A DNA stretch of 64,000 bases from Phycisphaerae bacterium. Lineage in GTDB: Bacteria; Planctomycetota; Phycisphaerae; UBA1845; Fen-1342. The notes below the pieces were generated by a model. That model ran no database searches and was not told where the DNA came from. It saw only the letters and a list, made by a program, of their open reading frames with translations. Below, one piece after another: positions 1 to 10,271 of this stretch. The stretch lies in NCBI GenBank assembly GCA_050115495.1, contig JASFQK010000007.1:32001-96000 (forward strand), read 5' to 3'. Position numbers and translations under genes: made by a program. How positions within the stretch are numbered: the stretch's first letter is position 1; every line of letters starts with the position of its first letter.

Positions 1-767
1 CTCCGCCCGGACACCCAGGGTAGATAGTCGCCCGCACACAAGCAAACGAACGCAAGGCCCACGACGAACAGGCCCGCGGTCGGCAGAAGGGCCGCATCTC
101 TTCGACGCCTGCCGCCGCGGTCGAGGAGGTACTCCATGTACCAGCAGGCTGCCATGGCCATCGCCAGACAAGCGAGGACGGCCGCTACGAGCAGCCCCCC
201 CGAAACCCCTTGATACGGAGGCACCCATACAGACCACCTCGTATCGTACAGCGCCGCCGCAACGCCCAGCGCCAGCGCTGCCCACATCAGCGAGCGGGCG
301 ACCCGCCGCGTCCACCCCGGCCGGCGAATCGGCTCGACCGGTTCCCGCACCGTGAGCAGGAGCGTCCCGAAGCACGCACACACGGCACTACCCGCCCCGA
401 TCGCCGGCGCGAGCCCGATGAGCAACTCAACGAACGACAGACTGGACGCAATACCCATTAGCGCGGCAAGCAGTAGGAGCACAACCAGGAACAGACCCGC
501 GCAGGCCGCACCCGCGACGGCCGTCAGCAGCACCAACCCACCACGAACCATGCGAAGCCACCGCCGGTCAGCGCAGCGCAGATTCTCACAGAACAGCGAA
601 TCGCCCACCGGTAGCGCGCACTCTGGGCAGTTCCCGGCCGGCTCCAACCCACGCAGGTTGTAGCCGCACCGGCTGCAGCGCCGATCCTCGGCCAAGCGCC
701 CGTCCTGATCCAGCGCCGCCCCGCGAGCATCCAAACCACCATCAGCTTCCGACGCCATGTTCTCCAC
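1..767 (-). CDS. Zn-ribbon multi-TM membrane protein, array copy G1 (3' end runs off window)
   Basis: Not in ORF track. Manual translation from GTG 767/ATG 758 gives MASEADGG..LDQDGRLAEDRRCSRCGYNLRGLEPAGNCPEC..LRCADRRWLRMVRGGL, then hydrophobic segments, open to position 1. Confidence 0.85.
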   Translation of the reverse strand, partial: MENMASEADGGLDARGAALDQDGRLAEDRRCSRCGYNLRGLEPAGNCPECALPVGDSLFCENLRCADRRWLRMVRGGLVLLTAVAGAACAGLFLVVLLLLAALMGIASSLSFVELLIGLAPAIGAGSAVCACFGTLLLTVREPVEPIRRPGWTRRVARSLMWAALALGVAAALYDTRWSVWVPPYQGVSGGLLVAAVLACLAMAMAACWYMEYLLDRGGRRRRDAALLPTAGLFVVGLAFVCLCAGDYLPWVSGR

Positions 768-875
768 TCACTCCCCGACGGCCGAGCCTCGAACTTCCGC
801 ACCACGACCGCTCACCGCAGGCCGCCGCCAGCAATCCTATGCCTCGTCCCGCCGTCCACAAGACCCAGCGGTCGA

Positions 876-1799
876 TTACGCGTCTGGCGGCGTCCGCCCG
901 TGGCGCTCCACACCGTCGTCGCAGACCCTATCCACGACCCGGTAGGTTCGCACCGCGAGGACCAACACGGCGATGGGCGTCACCAGACCACCGATCATCA
1001 GCGATATGGCCCCGAGCACAGCAAAGCACGCCATTGGGCTGGATGCCAGCGGGTAGTGCGTGGCCGCACACCAGCAGACGACGGCGATGCCCACGAACAA
1101 CGCGCCCGCGAACGGCACAAGAGTCACGTTCTTCTTGCGCCAGCTGCTACGGTGGAGGAGGTGCCCCATGTAGTGACAGGCGACCACGACCATCGCGAGG
1201 CCGGCGAGTACAGCCACCGCGCATAGTCCCAGCAGAAGCCTGCCGTCGACAAACACGTCCACAGACCACGCCGCGCCGAGCAACGCCGCCGCGATCCACA
1301 GCGCCACCACCACCCACGTCAGCCGGCGGGCCACGAGCCGCGCCCGTACCGGCGGGCGCACTCGCTCGACCGGCTCAAGCGTGGTGAACAACAGAATCCC
1401 TATGGACGCACCCACGGCACTCCCCAGGGCAATCACCGGCGCGAGCGCGACGGTCGGCTCAATAAACGGGGATTCGTTCCTGGCATCCAGTAACGCACTG
1501 ATGAATGCAAGCATAACGAGGAACAGCCACGCGCAGATCGCGCCTGCCGCCATCGCCAACAGCACCAATCCGGTCCGAACCGTGCGGAGCCACGGCTGGT
1601 CCGCGTGGCGCAGATCATCGCCGACCAGCGAATCGCCCACCGGCGCCGCGCACTCCGGGCAGTTCCCCGTCGGCTCCAGCCCGCGCAGGTTGTACCCGCA
1701 CTGAACGCAACGATGATCGTCCGCCAAGCGCCCCTCCTGATCGAGCGGCGCTCCGCGAGCAATCCCACCATCATCCGGTCCCGACGCCATGCTCTTCAC
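876..1799 (-). CDS. Zn-ribbon multi-TM membrane protein, array copy G2
   Basis: CVQCGYNLRGL..CPEC motif, about 6 hydrophobic segments, conserved C-terminal YRVVD..DD..R motif. Confidence 0.9.
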   Translation of the reverse strand: MKSMASGPDDGGIARGAPLDQEGRLADDHRCVQCGYNLRGLEPTGNCPECAAPVGDSLVGDDLRHADQPWLRTVRTGLVLLAMAAGAICAWLFLVMLAFISALLDARNESPFIEPTVALAPVIALGSAVGASIGILLFTTLEPVERVRPPVRARLVARRLTWVVVALWIAAALLGAAWSVDVFVDGRLLLGLCAVAVLAGLAMVVVACHYMGHLLHRSSWRKKNVTLVPFAGALFVGIAVVCWCAATHYPLASSPMACFAVLGAISLMIGGLVTPIAVLVLAVRTYRVVDRVCDDGVERHGRTPPDA

Positions 1800-1843
1800 T
1801 CACTCCCCAACAGCCGAACCTCGACTCTCCCTACCGCTGCCGA

Positions 1844-2746
1844 CTACCCGGCCGGCGGCGTCCGCCCGTAGCGAACCGGATCGTCGCGCCAGGCCTGGTC
1901 CACAACACGATAGGCTTGCAGCATGACGAGGAACAGGACGCCCGCCGTCGGCGGCATCAGCCCCACCAGCAGCGCGAGGGCCAGGACGAACACCCAGTCG
2001 CTCGGGCCACGATCGGGACTGACCGCGAAACAGATGCCTAGCAGAACGCCCGCCGCGACCACCAGCGCGACCACTGAGCCGGCCAGGCTGTCCCCTTCAG
2101 CATCACCGCGCTTGATGAGGTACCCCATGTGCACGCTGGCCGCGCCGATCGTCGCCAGGCCGACGAGGAGGGCCGCCGCGTCAGCGACCAGCGTGCCCAG
2201 AGAACCCACCGGCCCCAACGCCCCGCGATCGAGCAGAATCACGACGACCCCGATCACCGCCAGGCCACACGTCAGGATGCGTGCCCAGCGCCGGGTCCGT
2301 GCCGGCTGGCCCTCCCGCTCGTTCGGCTCGCACGCTGTGAACAGCAGCATCCCACAGAACGCGAGCACGGCGCTGCCTACGCCGCACACGATCGCTACCC
2401 AGGCGACGAAGAGGTCGAGCGAGAGGCTCCGCGTTACCACCGCCATGAAAAGGGCCAACGCCATGGCCAGCACGCAGGCGAAGAAGCTTACCGCCGCGAC
2501 GAGCAGCAGCAGCAATCCCAGCCGGACCTTGCGCAGCCACCGCCGATCCGCGTAGCGCAGTTGGTTGCTGACGAGCGACTCGCGCACCGGCTGCGCGCAT
2601 TCCGGACAATCCCCCGCCGGCTCCAGCCCGCGCAGGTTATAGCCGCAGCGGCTACAGCGCCGATCCTCAGCCAAGCGCCCGTCCTGATCCAGCGGCGCTC
2701 CGCCGTCGCTCCCGCTGCCGTCGTCTTCCGATGCCATGCTCCCCAA
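1844..2746 (-). CDS. Zn-ribbon multi-TM membrane protein, array copy G3
   Basis: CSRCGYNLRGL..CPEC, LRYADRRWL, TM segments, YRVVDQAWRDDPVRYG. Confidence 0.9.
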   Translation of the reverse strand: MGSMASEDDGSGSDGGAPLDQDGRLAEDRRCSRCGYNLRGLEPAGDCPECAQPVRESLVSNQLRYADRRWLRKVRLGLLLLLVAAVSFFACVLAMALALFMAVVTRSLSLDLFVAWVAIVCGVGSAVLAFCGMLLFTACEPNEREGQPARTRRWARILTCGLAVIGVVVILLDRGALGPVGSLGTLVADAAALLVGLATIGAASVHMGYLIKRGDAEGDSLAGSVVALVVAAGVLLGICFAVSPDRGPSDWVFVLALALLVGLMPPTAGVLFLVMLQAYRVVDQAWRDDPVRYGRTPPAG

Positions 2747-2856
2747 GCACTCCCCGACCGCCGGTCCGTCACCTTCCGGCGACGCATCTACTCACCGAAC
2801 CGCAGTCACAGGGATTTCAACGCCCCGCCTCGCCGTCGGCAAGCGCCGCCGGCCGA

Positions 2857-3759
2857 TTACCGCAATCCCAGCGCCTCCCTGTAGCGGTCCGGGTCGTCGC
2901 GCCAGGCACGATTCACAGCGCGGTAAGCTCGTGCCGCAAGAACCAACAGTGCCGCCAGCGTTGCCGGCGTGGCTCCCACGAGCACCATGGCCCCTGTAAC
3001 CCAGATGCCGTCGACCACGTCAGCCGCCGCCGAGACGGCGATAGCCACGCCCCAGCAGGCGAACCACCCACCAACGGCGAGCACTCCCGCCGCCGGAACA
3101 GCACCCAGGCCCCCTCGGGCCGAGCCACTGCGACCCGTGAGGTTCTCCAGGTGCCAGAGAACCGCGGCGGCCATGACGAGACCGACGACGATGGTCGCCA
3201 GAATGAACGTCACCTGAACGCCGCGGCCCACGGACGGCAACAGGGCGAGCAATGCGGTTGCGTCCGCCAACACCACCAGGACCCACAGCAGACGGCGCGC
3301 CGCGACCCGCACCGACGCCGGGCGGCCGGGACACTCGCCCGTTTCGCACGCCGTGCACAACAACACGCCGACGAACACGGATACGACAGCGCACGCGCCG
3401 ATCGCCAGTGCGGTCAGGGTGATCACTTCGCTCGCCAGGGCACGGCCCGTCCCTCCCAGAACCTTGAGGACGCGCCCAACGTGGAGCGAGAGCACACTCG
3501 CACTGATCCCCCCGGCCCCGACCAGTAGTAGCATGAGTCCTCGGCGAACCTGGCGAAGCCACCGCCGGTCCGCGTAACGCAACTGGTCACTGACGAGCGA
3601 TTCTCGCACCCGCTGTGCACATTCCGGGCACTTCCCGGTCGGCTTCAGTCCGCGCAGGTTGTAGCCGCAGTGGCTGCAGCGCCGGTCCTCCGCCAGACGA
3701 CCCGCCTGATCCAGCGGCGCCCCGCGCGTGCTCCACTTGCTGTCGCCTTCTGCCGACAT
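2857..3759 (-). CDS. Zn-ribbon multi-TM membrane protein, array copy G4
   Basis: CSHCGYNLRGL..CPEC, LRYADRRWL, YRAVNRAWRDDPDRY. Confidence 0.9.
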   Translation of the reverse strand: MSAEGDSKWSTRGAPLDQAGRLAEDRRCSHCGYNLRGLKPTGKCPECAQRVRESLVSDQLRYADRRWLRQVRRGLMLLLVGAGGISASVLSLHVGRVLKVLGGTGRALASEVITLTALAIGACAVVSVFVGVLLCTACETGECPGRPASVRVAARRLLWVLVVLADATALLALLPSVGRGVQVTFILATIVVGLVMAAAVLWHLENLTGRSGSARGGLGAVPAAGVLAVGGWFACWGVAIAVSAAADVVDGIWVTGAMVLVGATPATLAALLVLAARAYRAVNRAWRDDPDRYREALGLR

Positions 3760-3862
3760 GTTCGCTGCTCACGCCCCAGCGGGAAAACCTGCACGCTCAG
3801 ACGTTGCACCTGTTCACCGGCTCTCCGCCACGAGGACTCCAACGCCTCGCGCCGCCGGCCGA

Positions 3863-4768
3863 TTACTCCGGCGGCGGCATGCGCGGGCAGTGGTCCGGAC
3901 CGTCCTCGCAGGCCTGGTCCACGACGCCATGCGTCCGCCACACGAGCAAAAGCAGAACCACCAGCGCCACCGGGGCGATCCCCACCACCGGTATGGCACT
4001 GTTGGTGAAGACACCCCCTCCTACAAGGGCCGAAGACGACAGGGAGTGGGTCACGAACCACCATAAGAGCAACGCCCCCAACGCAAGCACGTTCACGATC
4101 CCGAGCATGGCCAGGTCGCCCCCTCCGGCGAGGCTGCGCTCGTGAAGGCTCCCCATGTACAGGCTGCCGGCGAACGCCAGCGCCAGACCGACAACGACGT
4201 CCGCCACGACGAACACCGACGAGACCCCGGAGCGCCAGGGCGCCGGCATGAACGACGGAACGATGAACAGCACGGTCGCGCCCCCGAGCACCGCCAGGGC
4301 CCACATCAGGCCCCGCGCCCAGCGCCGCGCCAGCACCGGCCAGCCGGCCCACTCACCCGGTTCAGGCGTCGTGAACAGGAGCATCCCCACGAGCCCGACC
4401 GCGCTGCCGCCCAGGCAAACCAACAGGGCGAACACGTCACCGGCAAGTCCACCAAGTGTCATCACCGGTCGCCCGGCCAGAGACGCCGCCATGAGGCGGA
4501 AGGCACTCACGCCGACCAGGCCGACGGCGACAAACAGCAGCAGCAACCCGCCGCGCACCGTGCGCAGCCATCGCCGATCCGCATAGCGCAGGCTATCCAG
4601 CAGCAGCGAGCGCCAGACCGGCAGCGCGCATTCCGGGCATTCGTGCTCCGGCGCCAGGCCGTGCAGGTTGTAGCCGCAACGGCCACACCGGCGATCCTCG
4701 GCCAGGCGCCCCTCCGCATCTAGCGCCGTCCCGCAGATGCTATGGCCGCTATAGTCTTCCGCCGACAT
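3863..4768 (-). CDS. Zn-ribbon multi-TM membrane protein, array copy G5
   Basis: CGRCGYNLHGL..CPEC, LRYADRRWL, TM segments. Confidence 0.9.
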   Translation of the reverse strand: MSAEDYSGHSICGTALDAEGRLAEDRRCGRCGYNLHGLAPEHECPECALPVWRSLLLDSLRYADRRWLRTVRGGLLLLFVAVGLVGVSAFRLMAASLAGRPVMTLGGLAGDVFALLVCLGGSAVGLVGMLLFTTPEPGEWAGWPVLARRWARGLMWALAVLGGATVLFIVPSFMPAPWRSGVSSVFVVADVVVGLALAFAGSLYMGSLHERSLAGGGDLAMLGIVNVLALGALLLWWFVTHSLSSSALVGGGVFTNSAIPVVGIAPVALVVLLLLVWRTHGVVDQACEDGPDHCPRMPPPE

Positions 4769-4887
4769 GCTCGCCGCTCACACCCCACCGGCCGAGCCTT
4801 CATGTCCCGGCGACGCGCCCGTTCACCGAATTGCCTACAGGATTATTGCAGCGCGCCACGCCGCCGTCGACAAGACCCGGCGGACGA

Positions 4888-5799
4888 TCACCGCGATCCC
4901 GGCGTCTGTCCGTAACGGTCCGGGTTGTCACTCCACGCCTGATTCACGACGCGATAGGTCCGCAGCACAAGCAGAAACGAGACCGCCAGCGTCGCCGGCC
5001 CGATCCCCAGATGTACTACAGCCCCGGTGACAAGAATGGCATCTGCCACACCGGGCGCTGCCAGAACGAAACTGGCGACGCACCAGCAAACGAGCGTCAC
5101 CCCCAGGCCAAGCAGTCCCGCCATCGCCAGCACCGCGATGTCCCCTCCCGCCGCGCCACCGCGGCCGATGAGACTCTGCATGTACCGGCAGGCCGCGATG
5201 GCCGTCGCCAGGCCGGCGACAACACCCGCCAGGATGAGCGCCACCAGGATTCCGACGCCCGCAAATGCCAGGAGGATGAGAAGGATCGTCGTGCCCCCCA
5301 ACACCGCCGCCGTCCAGAACAGGCAGCGCGCCGCGAGCCGCGCCCACACCGGCCGGCCCAACCGTTCGGCCGGCTCCTGCACGGTAAGCAGGAGCATGCC
5401 GAGAAACGCCGGTACAACGCTTACGATGCTGCAAGTCAGGGCAACGATCCACATTATGTCGCCGGCCGACCCGCCGCGCATCCGCGCCAGCGCACCGACG
5501 ATGGTCGCGGCCAGGAACAGCAGCACACTCGCACAGATACCCCCTACCGCCAACACCAGCAGCGCCAAACCGCTACGAACCTGGCTAAGCCACTGCCGGT
5601 TCGCGTAGCGCAGGTCATTCGCGACGAGCGAATCATGCACTGGCTGCGCACATTCCGGGCAGAGCTGTTCCGGCTCCAGTCCGCGCAGGTTGTACCCGCA
5701 CCGGCAGCAGCGCCGATCCTCGGCCAGCCGCCCAGCCGCATCCAGCGGCGCCCTGCCGTCGCGACCACCACTGTCAGCTTCCGCCACCATGCTTCCCAC
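4888..5799 (-). CDS. Zn-ribbon multi-TM membrane protein, array copy G6
   Basis: CCRCGYNLRGL..CPEC, YRVVNQAWSDNPDRYGQTPGSR. Confidence 0.9.
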   Translation of the reverse strand: MGSMVAEADSGGRDGRAPLDAAGRLAEDRRCCRCGYNLRGLEPEQLCPECAQPVHDSLVANDLRYANRQWLSQVRSGLALLVLAVGGICASVLLFLAATIVGALARMRGGSAGDIMWIVALTCSIVSVVPAFLGMLLLTVQEPAERLGRPVWARLAARCLFWTAAVLGGTTILLILLAFAGVGILVALILAGVVAGLATAIAACRYMQSLIGRGGAAGGDIAVLAMAGLLGLGVTLVCWCVASFVLAAPGVADAILVTGAVVHLGIGPATLAVSFLLVLRTYRVVNQAWSDNPDRYGQTPGSR

Positions 5800-5817
5800 A
5801 CACTCCCCACCGGCTGA

Positions 5818-6744
5818 TCACCGCGATCCCGGCGTCTGTCCGTAACGATCCGGATCGTCGCGCCAAGCCTGATCTACAACACGGTACGCCCGCAGCACAA
5901 GCAGGAACAGGATGACCGCGGTCATCGGGATCATCGCCAGCAGCGGCAATGCGGAGACCAGGGCCAGGGCGCCTCCGCCGTACCCGGCCGCGTAGACGGA
6001 TACGCAGCAAACAAAGATCAACGTCCCCACGATAAGCGCCAACGCCGCCAGCGAGCCGGCCATCTCGCCCGCATCCGCCCCACCGCGCTCGATGAGGTGC
6101 CTCATGTACTGACTGGCCGTGACGAGCGTCGCCAGCCCGACGACCAGGCCCGTCGAAGTCACCGCCAGCGAAAACCACGTATCCACCAGCCCGTACGACA
6201 CACCGAGGGGCAGGATCAAGATACCCCCGAGCACCCCCAGGACGAGTGTCAGACCACGCGTCGCCCGGCGGCACGATGTCACCCGGCCGGTCTGCTCGGT
6301 GGGCTCACGCGCCGTGAACACGAGCAGACCGCCAAACATGAGCGCGGTGCCACCGAGGCCACCGAGCACCGTTACGCAAGCGACGAGACCGGCGATGGAC
6401 TCACCCGCCCGGCTCGTCGCGAGCGCGATGATCGTCGGCAACAGGGAGAGCAGACTCGCGCACAGGCTGCCCACGCCGACCAGCAGCATCAGCAGCCCGG
6501 CCCGAACCTTACCGAGCCACGATCGATCCGCGTAGCGCAGGCCGTTGGCGGCCAACGAGTGGCTGACCGGTGCCGCACACTCTGGGCAGTCCCCCGCCGG
6601 GTCGAGGCCGCGCAGGTTGTACCCACAGCGGCAGCAGCGCCGATCCTCGGCCAGCCGCCCGTGCTCATCGAGGGGCGCTTCGCCGACGTTCTCGACACTG
6701 TGACCTTCCGGCGGCATAGGCCCCATCCACTCCCCAACGTCCAC
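5818..6744 (-). CDS. Zn-ribbon multi-TM membrane protein, array copy G7
   Basis: CCRCGYNLRGL..CPEC, YRVVDQAWRDDPDRYGQTPGSR; true start may be a few codons downstream. Confidence 0.9.
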   Translation of the reverse strand: MDVGEWMGPMPPEGHSVENVGEAPLDEHGRLAEDRRCCRCGYNLRGLDPAGDCPECAAPVSHSLAANGLRYADRSWLGKVRAGLLMLLVGVGSLCASLLSLLPTIIALATSRAGESIAGLVACVTVLGGLGGTALMFGGLLVFTAREPTEQTGRVTSCRRATRGLTLVLGVLGGILILPLGVSYGLVDTWFSLAVTSTGLVVGLATLVTASQYMRHLIERGGADAGEMAGSLAALALIVGTLIFVCCVSVYAAGYGGGALALVSALPLLAMIPMTAVILFLLVLRAYRVVDQAWRDDPDRYGQTPGSR

Positions 6745-7659
6745 TCACCAGCTCCGTAGCATCCGCCCGTAACGATCCGGATCTTCGCGCCGGGCCCGAT
6801 TCACGGCGCGATGTGTCCGCCGCACCAGCATGAACAGCAGCACCAGCGTCGTCGGTCCGATCCCCAGCAGCAGCACCGCCCCCATGCGGAAAAGGTCCTG
6901 CAGGGGCTCAGGAACCGGCGGCGCAAAGAAAGCGATATACCAGCAGACGAACGACACCGCCGTGACGACCACCCCCGCCGCCGTCCAAAGGGCCAGGTCG
7001 GCGTCGGCCGCCCCGGCGCGGCCGACGAGGTGTCCCATGTACAGGCTGGCCGCAACGGCCAGCGGCAGGGCAACCACGATGTCCGCGATGATGAGCCACG
7101 GCGAGGCCCCATAGCGCAGGAACGCCGGCACAAACGACGGGCCGCTGAACAGCGCCGTGGTCCCGCCCAGCACCATCAGCGTCCACATCAGACCACGCGC
7201 CCAGCGCCGCGCCCGTGCCGGCCAGCCCGGCCGCTCCGCGGGCTCGCGCCACGTGAGCAGCAGTATCCCGAAGAACCCGGGCACGATGCTCGCCGTCACG
7301 ACCACAAGCGCAGAGATGGCGATCGCCTCACTGGCCGATCCGCTGTCCAACCCCGTGAAACCCCCAATGACGATCGCGGCGGCGAAGAGAAGCACACTCG
7401 CGCAGACGCCCCCGACCGCAATCAGCAGCAACAGCAGCCCGAGCCGAACCTTGCCGAGCCACCGCCAATCCGCGTAGCGCAGGTTGCCGCCGACGAGCGA
7501 ATCGCGCACCAGCAACGCACATTCCGGGCAGTGCTCCGCCGGCGCCAGCCCGCGCAGGTTATAGCCGCAACGGCAGCAACGTCGATCATCGGCCAACCGC
7601 CCCTCCTTATCGAGGGGCGTTCCGCAGATGCTCCGTCCACCGTGCCCGTTCGGCGGCAT
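6745..7659 (-). CDS. Zn-ribbon multi-TM membrane protein, array copy G8 (first transcribed)
   Basis: CCRCGYNLRGL..CPEC, LRYADWRWL, HRAVNRARREDPDRYG; GGGGAG upstream. Confidence 0.9.
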   Translation of the reverse strand: MPPNGHGGRSICGTPLDKEGRLADDRRCCRCGYNLRGLAPAEHCPECALLVRDSLVGGNLRYADWRWLGKVRLGLLLLLIAVGGVCASVLLFAAAIVIGGFTGLDSGSASEAIAISALVVVTASIVPGFFGILLLTWREPAERPGWPARARRWARGLMWTLMVLGGTTALFSGPSFVPAFLRYGASPWLIIADIVVALPLAVAASLYMGHLVGRAGAADADLALWTAAGVVVTAVSFVCWYIAFFAPPVPEPLQDLFRMGAVLLLGIGPTTLVLLFMLVRRTHRAVNRARREDPDRYGRMLRSW

Positions 7660-8069: not shown

Positions 8070-10271
8070 TTACGGTGTGCTGCTGCTCACGAACGGCTTC
8101 TGCTCCGGCGCCAGCACGAAGGCAAAAGACGCGTGAGCGTCGTACTTCCACAGGCGGCTCCAGCCGTTCGTCGCCGTCGCCCACACGTGCAGGTGTTCGC
8201 CGAACCCGGCGATCGAGCACTTGCCAAGCAGATCCACCACCGTCTGGGTGTTCGACTTCACGCCCGGCTCAGGGACTGCCGTGCCCTCGTCCGGCAGCGT
8301 AGGCGCGGAGCCCGGCGGCAGCGAAAGAACATGAACGCCGCGCTGCACCCGGAACCGGTACGTGGCGAAACCGTTCGGGTGGTTCGGCGCGTACGTCATC
8401 GTGACCGAACTCGAAGCCTTCGGACCATACTCCATCACGCCGCAGTCGTCGCCGGCGGGCACACCGTCCAGATTCGGCGCCGGGATGACCGCGCTGCACT
8501 CGTTGTTGTCGATGTGCAACATCATGACGAAGCTGTTGCCGACCACGAGCCCCAGGTCTGCTGCATCAGAGGTCTCGATGTCGCCCATGATGTCCCCCAC
8601 ATCAGGCACCCGGTACGTGATGCCCTTGGCCGCGATGTCCACCGGGTTCCCGCTCGCATCGAACAGGTCGATCTTGAGCTGGTACTTGCCGTGCTCCGCC
8701 GCCGGCGCCAGGTCCTCCGTGGGGAACTTCGCGCTCGACGTGTCCTCGACAACGTTCGGCAGGCTCCACCACCCCAGCGGCGGCGCCGCCGGCGGAATCT
8801 CGAACAAATCCGGCGTACCGTTGACAACGTGCGGCCCGAGCGGAAAGACCTCCAGCACCAGGTCATCGCCAACCTCATGCGTGTAGTGGCGCACCACCGC
8901 ACTCGACAGCGGAACGTACGCCGGCGTTGGAGCGGTCGGGTCGTTCGGCGCCTTCCGGTACGACACCCGGTAGTACTTCACGCCCAGCGTCTCCCGCAGA
9001 CTGCTGTCGAACTCGATCCGCGGACGCAGCAGGCCACCGAACGGAGCCCCCGTATCCGTCAGCCCGCGATTCTCGTCGGTCGTCGCGCCCTGGAGATCCT
9101 CGCTCGATCCGTGGATCCTGCTCAGCGGGTGATTGCCGATTGCCAGAACCAGCACCCAATCGGGCGGGGCGTTCACCGGCGGACACGGCGCACACGTCCG
9201 CGCCAGTGGGTGTCCCGTGTACAGCGTGACCTCCGTGCCGCACACGTAATTCCAGTGCGTGCAGCAGAACACCGGTTTGGGCTCGTAGATCATGATTGGC
9301 AGGAATTGCGGAATCGGCGGCCCGGGCACAATCGGCTGGTCCGAGTGGAAGATGAACTGCTTCGCCTTGAAATACAGATCCGGCTGGTCCGGATTGCCAC
9401 ACCCGCGGAAGAAGAGCGCCTTGAACTGCCCGCACGCGTCGGTCGTCGCCGTGGCCACCAGCCTCTTCGTGACCGGGTATTGCACCCAGCACAGCACAGG
9501 CCGCACAAACTCCGCATACGACAGCAGCTCCTGGCGGAATTGGCTTAAGCTCGCCGTCTGCGCCATGTACTGCAGCTCTGTCGGGATCGACCCCGACAAG
9601 GGCTGCGGCTCAACCGCCGGCAACGACAACGCCACTGACACTGCCGAGATCGACTTCATGATCGGGCCGGGATCGGGCCGGGGCCCTGGCTTCGGTGGAA
9701 CCCGCTCCAGCGGGAACGGCGGGAGTGGCTCCGGGAATAGCAGCCTGTGCCGGATCTTCTCGATGATGTAGTCCGGCAGCCGAGCCACGACGATCGGCCA
9801 GGGGTCGACTTCGTATACCTCCACGAGCGCATGACAGACCGGCAGGTCGACGTACGCGCCGTCCTGCTCGACCCGTTTCAGCAGCTTGCCGCGCACGGCG
9901 CACGCGCTCTTCACCCAACACAGCCACGACTCGGGGATTACGCGCATCTCCAGGACCAATTCACGCTTGTCCGACTCGACTCGCACAAACTGCCGCTCCG
10001 CCCCCCGGCGCTTCAGTTCCCCGACCGTGGCCGCCTCTTTCTCCACGCCGGGCCCCACCATCACCTGGACGCGTTGCGCGCTGTCCAGCGCCGGAAGCGT
10101 CAGCGCCGCGACCCCCTTCGCATCCACATCAGCCATGGCCAGCAAGCGCCCTCCGGCCGAGAACGCGTAGACCACGGCGCGCGGCACTTCCTTGGCCCCC
10201 TTCGACTCCATCAGGTCCACGTTGACCCGTAGTGACACCCCCCTGGAACCAGCCCCACTCTGTTCAGACAT
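8070..10271 (-). CDS. Hypothetical protein, 733 aa, Pro-rich linker, likely beta-rich
   Basis: Long ORF with strong RBS (AAGGAGG) and typical codon use; no family recognised with confidence. Confidence 0.8.
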   Translation of the reverse strand: MSEQSGAGSRGVSLRVNVDLMESKGAKEVPRAVVYAFSAGGRLLAMADVDAKGVAALTLPALDSAQRVQVMVGPGVEKEAATVGELKRRGAERQFVRVESDKRELVLEMRVIPESWLCWVKSACAVRGKLLKRVEQDGAYVDLPVCHALVEVYEVDPWPIVVARLPDYIIEKIRHRLLFPEPLPPFPLERVPPKPGPRPDPGPIMKSISAVSVALSLPAVEPQPLSGSIPTELQYMAQTASLSQFRQELLSYAEFVRPVLCWVQYPVTKRLVATATTDACGQFKALFFRGCGNPDQPDLYFKAKQFIFHSDQPIVPGPPIPQFLPIMIYEPKPVFCCTHWNYVCGTEVTLYTGHPLARTCAPCPPVNAPPDWVLVLAIGNHPLSRIHGSSEDLQGATTDENRGLTDTGAPFGGLLRPRIEFDSSLRETLGVKYYRVSYRKAPNDPTAPTPAYVPLSSAVVRHYTHEVGDDLVLEVFPLGPHVVNGTPDLFEIPPAAPPLGWWSLPNVVEDTSSAKFPTEDLAPAAEHGKYQLKIDLFDASGNPVDIAAKGITYRVPDVGDIMGDIETSDAADLGLVVGNSFVMMLHIDNNECSAVIPAPNLDGVPAGDDCGVMEYGPKASSSVTMTYAPNHPNGFATYRFRVQRGVHVLSLPPGSAPTLPDEGTAVPEPGVKSNTQTVVDLLGKCSIAGFGEHLHVWATATNGWSRLWKYDAHASFAFVLAPEQKPFVSSSTP

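What the first reader, a model, noticed from the sequence alone, without database searches (positions are those of the whole stretch)
1..7659. Tandem array of at least eight zinc-ribbon/6-TM paralogs with constant ends and a variable membrane core
Seen: eight head-to-tail ~300-aa genes. All keep an N-terminal LD..GRLA.D.RCxxCGYNL.GL....CPEC..LR.A...WL..VR block, and the seven complete copies keep a C-terminal (Y/H)..V....(D/E).P.RY-like block. The six hydrophobic segments between them are strongly diverged. No copy is frameshifted and lengths stay 300-308 aa. Inference: selection keeps a repertoire of interchangeable membrane proteins with a shared cytoplasmic Zn-binding adaptor and variable specificity, such as sensors, immunity proteins, phage receptors or kin-recognition factors. 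I know no described system with this layout.
Basis: partly seen in the sequence, partly recalled or inferred. Interest (0 to 1): 0.85.

Follow-up and report, generated by a model that had tools for sequence, protein, structure and literature searches.

The report
Eight copies of kinase-linked membrane module
Eight side-by-side copies of a gene encode an unnamed membrane protein with a small four-cysteine knuckle, and because related bacteria carry the same protein fused to a protein kinase, the copies likely serve as interchangeable input parts of an undescribed signalling system.

Summary
The array is real and has exactly eight intact genes, not an assembly artefact. It is a species-level tandem expansion of a large unnamed Phycisphaerae family: 3,088 representatives at E<=1e-30, and no Pfam, NCBIfam or PDB match. 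The knuckle and the predicted cytoplasmic loops are conserved, the helices are under purifying selection (omega 0.45), and only the predicted outer loops evolve near neutrally. Positive selection is not robust. Tandem copies are common in relatives, and no partner gene or toxin recurs beside them. The best functional clue is one Ser/Thr kinase clade: 25 of its 30 best loci are fusions, all to knuckle-bearing parts, 18 of them to this full module. That kinase was not found in this genome or genus. Best reading: stand-alone membrane input modules that dock on a shared cytoplasmic partner (0.45).

The parts
6745..7659 (-). copy 8 (first in reading order), 304 aa: knuckle + six predicted TM helices
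5818..6717 (-). copy 7, 299 aa from ATG (upstream GTG at 6744)
4888..5790 (-). copy 6, 300 aa; modelled by AlphaFold (pLDDT 88, pTM 0.83; six long helices)
3863..4768 (-). copy 5, 301 aa; longest branch, C-terminal block most changed
2857..3759 (-). copy 4, 300 aa
1844..2737 (-). copy 3, 297 aa from ATG; sister of copy 7
876..1790 (-). copy 2, 304 aa from ATG; sister of copy 1
1..758 (-). copy 1, 304 aa from ATG; runs off the window and ends intact at C7:31844 (L001:17844)
5650..5709 (-). four-cysteine knuckle of copy 6 (C28-x2-C31 ... C44-P-E-C47), one example of the eight; metal binding is inferred
4769..4887 (-). spacer between copies 6 and 5; homologous (62-68%) to spacers 3760-3862, 2738-2856 and 759-875, showing that gene plus spacer was the duplicated unit; ends in a GGGGAG/GGGGTG-type ribosome-binding-like stretch
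4886..4917 (.). 32-nt exact repeat shared with 5816-5847 (3' ends of copies 6 and 7); likely gene-conversion tract and a unitig break point
5702..5733 (.). 32-nt exact repeat shared with 6629-6660 (start of the knuckle in copies 6 and 7); second unitig break point

Best explanation
The eight genes are locally duplicated copies of an unnamed Phycisphaerae membrane module that likely works as a stand-alone input part of a signalling system, predicted to span the inner membrane six times with a conserved knuckle and loops facing the cytoplasm, where they would dock a shared partner such as a Ser/Thr kinase. Shown: the array, its origin by tandem duplication within this lineage, purifying selection on every copy, the conserved-inside / variable-outside alternation, and fusion of the same module to a kinase in relatives. 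Inferred: N-in topology, zinc binding, a docking role for the knuckle, and that the variable outer loops and helix tips give each copy a different input. The partner in this organism is unknown, because the fused kinase clade was not found here.
For: Kinase fusions: a stand-alone, knuckle-free kinase as query matched 63 of 279 genomes of the order (67 matches). Of the 30 best loci, 25 are fusions and 5 stand alone. All 25 fused parts carry the knuckle: 17 with this full module by HMM, 1 with the module and a divergent knuckle seen by eye, 3 with the module cut short, 4 with other membrane bodies. Those other bodies score under 6 bits against the module core, and one has stand-alone relatives in this genome on C36. 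In L222, L155 and L216 the kinase joins ahead of TM segments, away from the knuckle, so recombination within the knuckle cannot explain every swap. About 1.7% of this genome's genes carry the knuckle. The module sits where planctomycete kinases carry their membrane and accessory domains, and kinase domains are predicted cytoplasmic (PMC11032199, passages), which fits N-in. Inner loops average 4.9 and 2.2 K/R against 0.4-0.8 in outer loops. In 134 family members all strongly conserved residues lie in the knuckle, first helix and inner loops; inner segments have fixed length (sd 0.6-0.8 aa) while helix-outer loop-helix hairpins vary (sd 4-14 aa). Other fusions: TPR (L045) and a DUF4190-like tail below cut-off (L095). 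92 of 94 knuckle ORFs have a TM-like window against 41 of 89 and 294 of 784 control genes. The eight copies form one clade (SH-aLRT 99, quick tree), and tandem neighbours in other genomes mostly group with each other too.
Against: The kinase clade was not found in this genome (best 194 bits against at least 300 for members, no tail motif; genome 92% complete) nor in 6 of 6 same-genus genomes. It occurs in under a quarter of the order, while 59 of 61 near relatives match the array profile (some matches may be knuckle only), so it is not the obligatory partner. The kinase fusions are related and may go back to one event with later swaps; that part of the tree is poorly resolved. Only 30 of the 67 matches were opened. 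Outer-loop omega (1.13-1.21) does not differ from 1 (p 0.13-0.35), which fits an unconstrained outer face as well as a diversifying one. No ligand or conserved pocket is known. No partner gene recurs in 95 loci.
Confidence: 0.45

Rival explanations
1. Membrane anchor or scaffold, not a sensor: the helices only hold the knuckle at the membrane, the knuckle recruits or clusters partners, and the outer face varies because nothing constrains it.
For: All family-wide conservation is on the predicted inner face. Outer loops are short with omega near 1. The kinase clade accepts at least four unrelated bodies as long as they carry a knuckle. The knuckle is on 94 diverse ORFs in this genome.
Against: A six-helix body with conserved inner-loop motifs and omega 0.45 in the helices is more than an anchor needs. 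Eight intact copies, each under purifying selection, are hard to explain if all do the same thing.
Confidence: 0.25
2. Dosage or slow turnover: redundant duplicates in a duplication-prone genome, held by weak purifying selection, with no division of labour.
For: 60 of 94 knuckle ORFs are in tandem clusters. The array is missing from the syntenic interval of same-genus G005. No robust positive selection. About 60% of sites fit omega near 1 under M1a.
Against: All 8 of 8 copies are intact after about 9 substitutions per codon of total tree length, with omega below 1 on every tip; old redundant copies would be expected to include pseudogenes (general knowledge).
Confidence: 0.13
3. Homogeneous polyimmunity locus or kin-recognition repertoire: each copy neutralises a different membrane-acting toxin or reads a different self marker.
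For: The layout fits the description in PMC3482391 (passages): tandem same-strand paralogs, short spacers, no toxin in between, multi-module fusions. Variable outer loops.
Against: Of 107 same-strand genes directly beside family members, 75 have a Pfam hit and none is a toxin, RHS or immunity domain; 32 have no hit. No immunity family matches the proteins. No PADLOC or PHROGs match beyond one knuckle-level Cas12f row at E 0.036. Kinase fusion is not expected of an immunity protein.
Confidence: 0.07
4. Transporter, channel or membrane enzyme with paralogs for different substrates.
For: Six TM helices; the array reads into sugar-isomerase-like, methyltransferase and URO-D genes on the same strand.
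Against: No charged or polar residue is conserved at 50% or more inside the helix cores. No fold match stands out (best Z 11.8, to designed helical bundles). The weak SecY profile hit (E 3e-4) is a hydrophobic-segment match that the fold searches did not return. None of 29 fetched isomerase orthologues has a family gene directly upstream.
Confidence: 0.05

Closest known systems
Integral-membrane sensor/input domains of signalling proteins (MASE1, MHYT, 7TMR-DISM; names and properties recalled, search listing only)
   Same: Multi-pass membrane module fused N- or C-terminally to a cytoplasmic output domain; also occurs with different partners.
   Different: No sequence match. Carries its own cytoplasmic C4 knuckle, is mostly stand-alone, and is fused to a Hanks-type kinase rather than to His-kinase or GGDEF/EAL outputs.
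Membrane-spanning Ser/Thr kinases of Planctomycetota (PMC11032199, passages)
   Same: The fused relatives are kinase + membrane part with the kinase predicted cytoplasmic.
   Different: The described accessory domains are mostly periplasmic TPR/WD40 on single-pass proteins; 'zinc' occurs 0 times in that paper's main text. The window's genes have no kinase domain.
Rubredoxin-like C4 knuckles (rubrerythrin RUBY_RBDX PF21349, LapB Zn_ribbon_LapB PF18073, DZR PF12773, haloarchaeal HVO_2753)
   Same: CxxC...CPxC pattern; weak sequence and fold hits.
   Different: All hits are below curated cut-offs for the window's proteins and cover about 25 residues only; none has this membrane body.
Homogeneous polyimmunity loci (PMC3482391, passages)
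   Same: Tandem, same-strand, diverged paralogs with short spacers.
   Different: No known immunity domain and no toxin association.

Membership tests
Any Pfam/NCBIfam family covering the whole protein | Score above the curated cut-off | tested here: not met
   0 of 8 copies in Pfam; 57 family members give only knuckle-level or single weak hits in NCBIfam and Pfam.
Rubredoxin-like C4 zinc knuckle (fold group) | Two CxxC pairs, invariant | tested here: met
   C28, C31, C44, C47 invariant in 57, 134 and 128 sequences.
Rubredoxin-like C4 zinc knuckle (fold group) | Fold match to solved knuckles | tested here: inconclusive
   Foldseek best E 0.31 (rubrerythrin), with rubredoxins and LapB in weaker rows; VIA no Z>=2.
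Rubredoxin-like C4 zinc knuckle (fold group) | Binds Zn (or Fe) | not testable with these tools
   Needs metal analysis.
Integral-membrane sensor domains (functional class) | Multi-pass module fused to a signalling output domain | tested here: met
   18 of the 30 best kinase loci carry the full module; also P0153, L091, L095. Met for relatives, not for the window's stand-alone copies.
Integral-membrane sensor domains (functional class) | Fused to several unrelated classes of output | tested here: inconclusive
   One kinase clade, plus single TPR and DUF4190-like fusions; the search for longer forms was weak.
Integral-membrane sensor domains (functional class) | Stimulus-dependent control of the output | not testable with these tools
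   Needs biochemistry.
Homogeneous polyimmunity locus | Tandem same-strand paralogs, short spacers, no toxin inside | tested here: met
Homogeneous polyimmunity locus | Members belong to an immunity family or lie next to toxin genes elsewhere | tested here: not met
   No immunity Pfam; no toxin domain among 107 adjacent genes, 32 of which have no Pfam hit.
Membrane anti-sigma factor | Gene directly beside a cognate ECF sigma factor | tested here: not met
   1 of 107 adjacent genes is an ECF sigma; 7 of 95 loci hold one, median 5 kb away.
Known transporter/channel folds | Structural match | tested here: inconclusive
   No Foldseek hit at E<=1e-3; VIA best Z 11.8, within the range common for helical bundles.

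The most novel reading that the evidence does not exclude
Phycisphaerae run a combinatorial receptor system: a 20-residue knuckle is a common docking tag on about 90 membrane proteins per genome, all feeding shared cytoplasmic partners that include a dedicated Ser/Thr kinase clade, and arrays such as this one are locally expanding receptor repertoires.
Probability: 0.3. Interest if true: 0.8.

Novelty: new variant of a known kind. Interest (0 to 1): 0.5.

Why it matters
The array itself is an ordinary tandem expansion. The family behind it is very large, found here only in one bacterial class, and has no name, structure or described function. The kinase-fusion pattern gives it a first testable role, and ties several unrelated knuckle-bearing membrane families to one signalling enzyme. 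If the docking-tag reading holds, it would account for nearly 2% of the genes of these genomes and describe a bacterial receptor-adaptor logic built on a shared cytoplasmic tag.

Tried and rejected
Homodimer prediction: no answer (score 0.00); not evidence either way. Expression: no RNA holder listed; runs X2 and X3 hold only short low-depth pieces, too little for strain variation. Positive selection: the first M2a fit stalled. Better starts gave M8 vs M8a 2dL 9.8-12.6 and M2a vs M1a 11.5-14.3. With double-nucleotide changes allowed this fell to 2.9 (p 0.09); 6 of the 8 top sites lie in alignment-unstable columns; stable columns gave 4.0 (p 0.046); the subset far from gaps gave 15.3 but with omega at its upper bound; one fit failed. 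Judged not robust. Fold searches of the whole model and of the N-terminal domain alone: nothing significant. ESM Atlas: only 'hypothetical' Planctomycetota clusters. Spacers as a mobile or structured element: no copy elsewhere in the genome at E<0.01, no Rfam hit of note, no shared fold by eye; promoter and terminator scans near chance. Word-index protein searches found 6, 1 and 2 proteins and are too insensitive for this family. Link to the downstream isomerase: not conserved. Literature: eight searches listed no paper on this family; 'Phycisphaerae' + 'zinc ribbon' gave 0. PMC1183210 was searched for passages and gave nothing of use. No supplements were read; the domain tables of PMC11032199 could list such kinases.
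Full report
Observation. Eight minus-strand ORFs lie head to tail at window 1-7659. The contig continues left; copy 1 ends intact at C7:31844 and is followed by a xylose-isomerase-like gene, an O-methyltransferase and a URO-D gene. A genome-wide motif scan finds exactly eight copies on C7, and a profile of the membrane core finds one more member elsewhere, on C47 (9 in all; next hit 19.6 bits against 95 or more). Unitigs from run X1 reproduce the stretch without a differing letter at flat depth (this run may be the source, so the check is on assembly only). Two 32-nt exact repeats shared by copies 6 and 7 leave the order of those two gene bodies open.

Origin. The spacers are homologous (62-68% identity, shuffle z 5-12), so gene plus spacer was duplicated as a unit. 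The eight copies form one clade among 65 family sequences (SH-aLRT 99, quick tree). In same-genus G005 the interval between the same flanking genes is about 2 kb and holds another gene (by motif a B12/radical-SAM enzyme, recalled) and no family member. One gene-conversion tract is significant, at the 3' ends of copies 6 and 7 (Bonferroni p 0.014). The array is thus a lineage-specific expansion.

Family. A 57-sequence profile finds 3,088 cluster representatives at E<=1e-30 and 7,752 at 1e-10 (weaker hits may be knuckle only). 79 of 80 named loci carry Planctomycetota titles, mostly Phycisphaerae; one is titled Rhodospirillaceae. In a phylum sample 7 of 14 same-class genomes and 0 of 236 others match at 1e-15, with only 9 candidates scored per genome. 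Of the 80 named loci, 62 hold one module, 12 two, 3 three and 3 no long match; G277 has four in a row; two- and three-module single proteins exist. Eight is the largest array I saw. No library names the family.

Anatomy. AlphaFold gives a confident model (pLDDT 88, pTM 0.83) with an N-terminal knuckle and six long helices; no solved fold matches convincingly. Charge bias points to N-in, C-in (inferred). Across 134 members the conserved residues (four Cys, Y33, L35, P45, E46, L60, W67, G74, G131, T136, P140, R151, R155, L207, R210) all lie on the predicted inner face; inner segments have fixed length and the outer hairpins do not; no polar residue is conserved in the helix cores.

Selection. 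Overall omega is 0.42. By region: knuckle plus first helix 0.17-0.19, helices 0.44-0.45, inner loops 0.38-0.41, C-terminus 0.33-0.37, outer loops 1.13-1.21. Helices and inner loops are far below 1 (p<1e-13); outer loops are not distinguishable from 1. Every terminal branch has omega 0.28-0.46 (approximate tests p<0.01). Site models favour about 4% of sites above 1, but the signal falls to p 0.09 when double-nucleotide changes are allowed and rests largely on unstable columns. These were my own script implementations with fixed relative branch lengths. Conclusion: the copies are functional by sequence criteria; diversifying selection is not shown.

Context. Among 784 called genes in 95 loci no partner recurs beyond common families (simple home-made gene caller). 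Of 107 adjacent same-strand genes, 75 have Pfam hits, none a toxin or immunity domain, one an ECF sigma. The knuckle itself is on 94 ORFs of this genome, 92 with a TM-like window (controls 41 of 89 and 294 of 784), and 60 of the 94 are in clusters.

Kinase link. A search for longer relatives returned a Ser/Thr kinase fused to the whole module (P0153), and two more were in my loci (L091, L095). The kinases form one clade against four kinases of this genome. A first genome search, whose query included the knuckle, gave 13 fused and 12 stand-alone among 25 loci. To remove that bias I searched with a stand-alone kinase: 63 of 279 genomes matched, and of the 30 best of 67 matches 25 are fusions, every one to a knuckle-bearing part: 18 this full module, 3 cut-short modules, 4 other bodies. 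The other bodies are unrelated to the module core, and one occurs stand-alone in this genome. The fusions are not independent events, but at least three body types were swapped in, some at junctions away from the knuckle. Against this, the clade was not found in this genome or in six same-genus genomes.

Mechanism. I read the eight genes as stand-alone versions of a membrane input module: conserved knuckle and inner loops dock a shared partner (inferred), and the free outer face would let copies differ in what they respond to (inferred, not shown). The main rival is a plain anchor or scaffold. Immunity and transport readings are weak.

Literature. Eight full-text searches listed no description of the family. 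I saw passages of PMC11032199, PMC3482391 and one passage of PMC1183210; no supplements. MASE1, MHYT and 7TMR-DISM properties are recalled.

Verdict. A real but ordinary tandem expansion of an undescribed, very large lineage family, with a new and testable link to kinase signalling. New variant of a known kind; interest 0.5.

Noticed in passing
L141-L165, L202-L230 (e.g. L148:1492-2637, L205:466-2568): An order-level Ser/Thr kinase clade with a conserved tail (roughly S-Y-F-D-x-L-xx-R-A-xx-K-R), either soluble and stand-alone or fused to knuckle-bearing membrane parts of at least four kinds; 63 of 279 genomes. Worth a study of its own.
   Followed up: partly
window 8070-10271 (-): 733-aa ORF upstream of the array with no Pfam hit; not found by DNA search in 6 of 6 same-genus genomes, so it may have arrived in the same interval as the array.
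   Followed up: partly
L003:6549-8324 (G000:C47): The ninth family member carries an extra N-terminal two-helix plus soluble region with no Pfam hit and lies beside small 2-TM knuckle genes.
   Followed up: partly
L142, L143 (G407, G453): Kinase fusions in which most of the six-helix body is deleted in frame, leaving the knuckle, one helix and a tail.
   Followed up: no
copies 1-8, residues about 208-214: The array clade has replaced the family's R-I-P-D inner-loop motif by R-G-G/R-S-type sequence while keeping the arginine.
   Followed up: no
L079 (record titled Rhodospirillaceae): Holds the family gene downstream of ftsH as in Phycisphaeraceae loci L073 and L089; probably a mis-binned or mis-titled contig.
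   Followed up: no
L001:11768-14032 (-): 754-aa exported-looking, cysteine-rich protein with a dockerin-like C-terminus (by eye), left of the array.
   Followed up: no
L140:6414-10562 (G277): Four-gene tandem array of the same family in a same-class genome of another family, one member with a double knuckle.
   Followed up: partly
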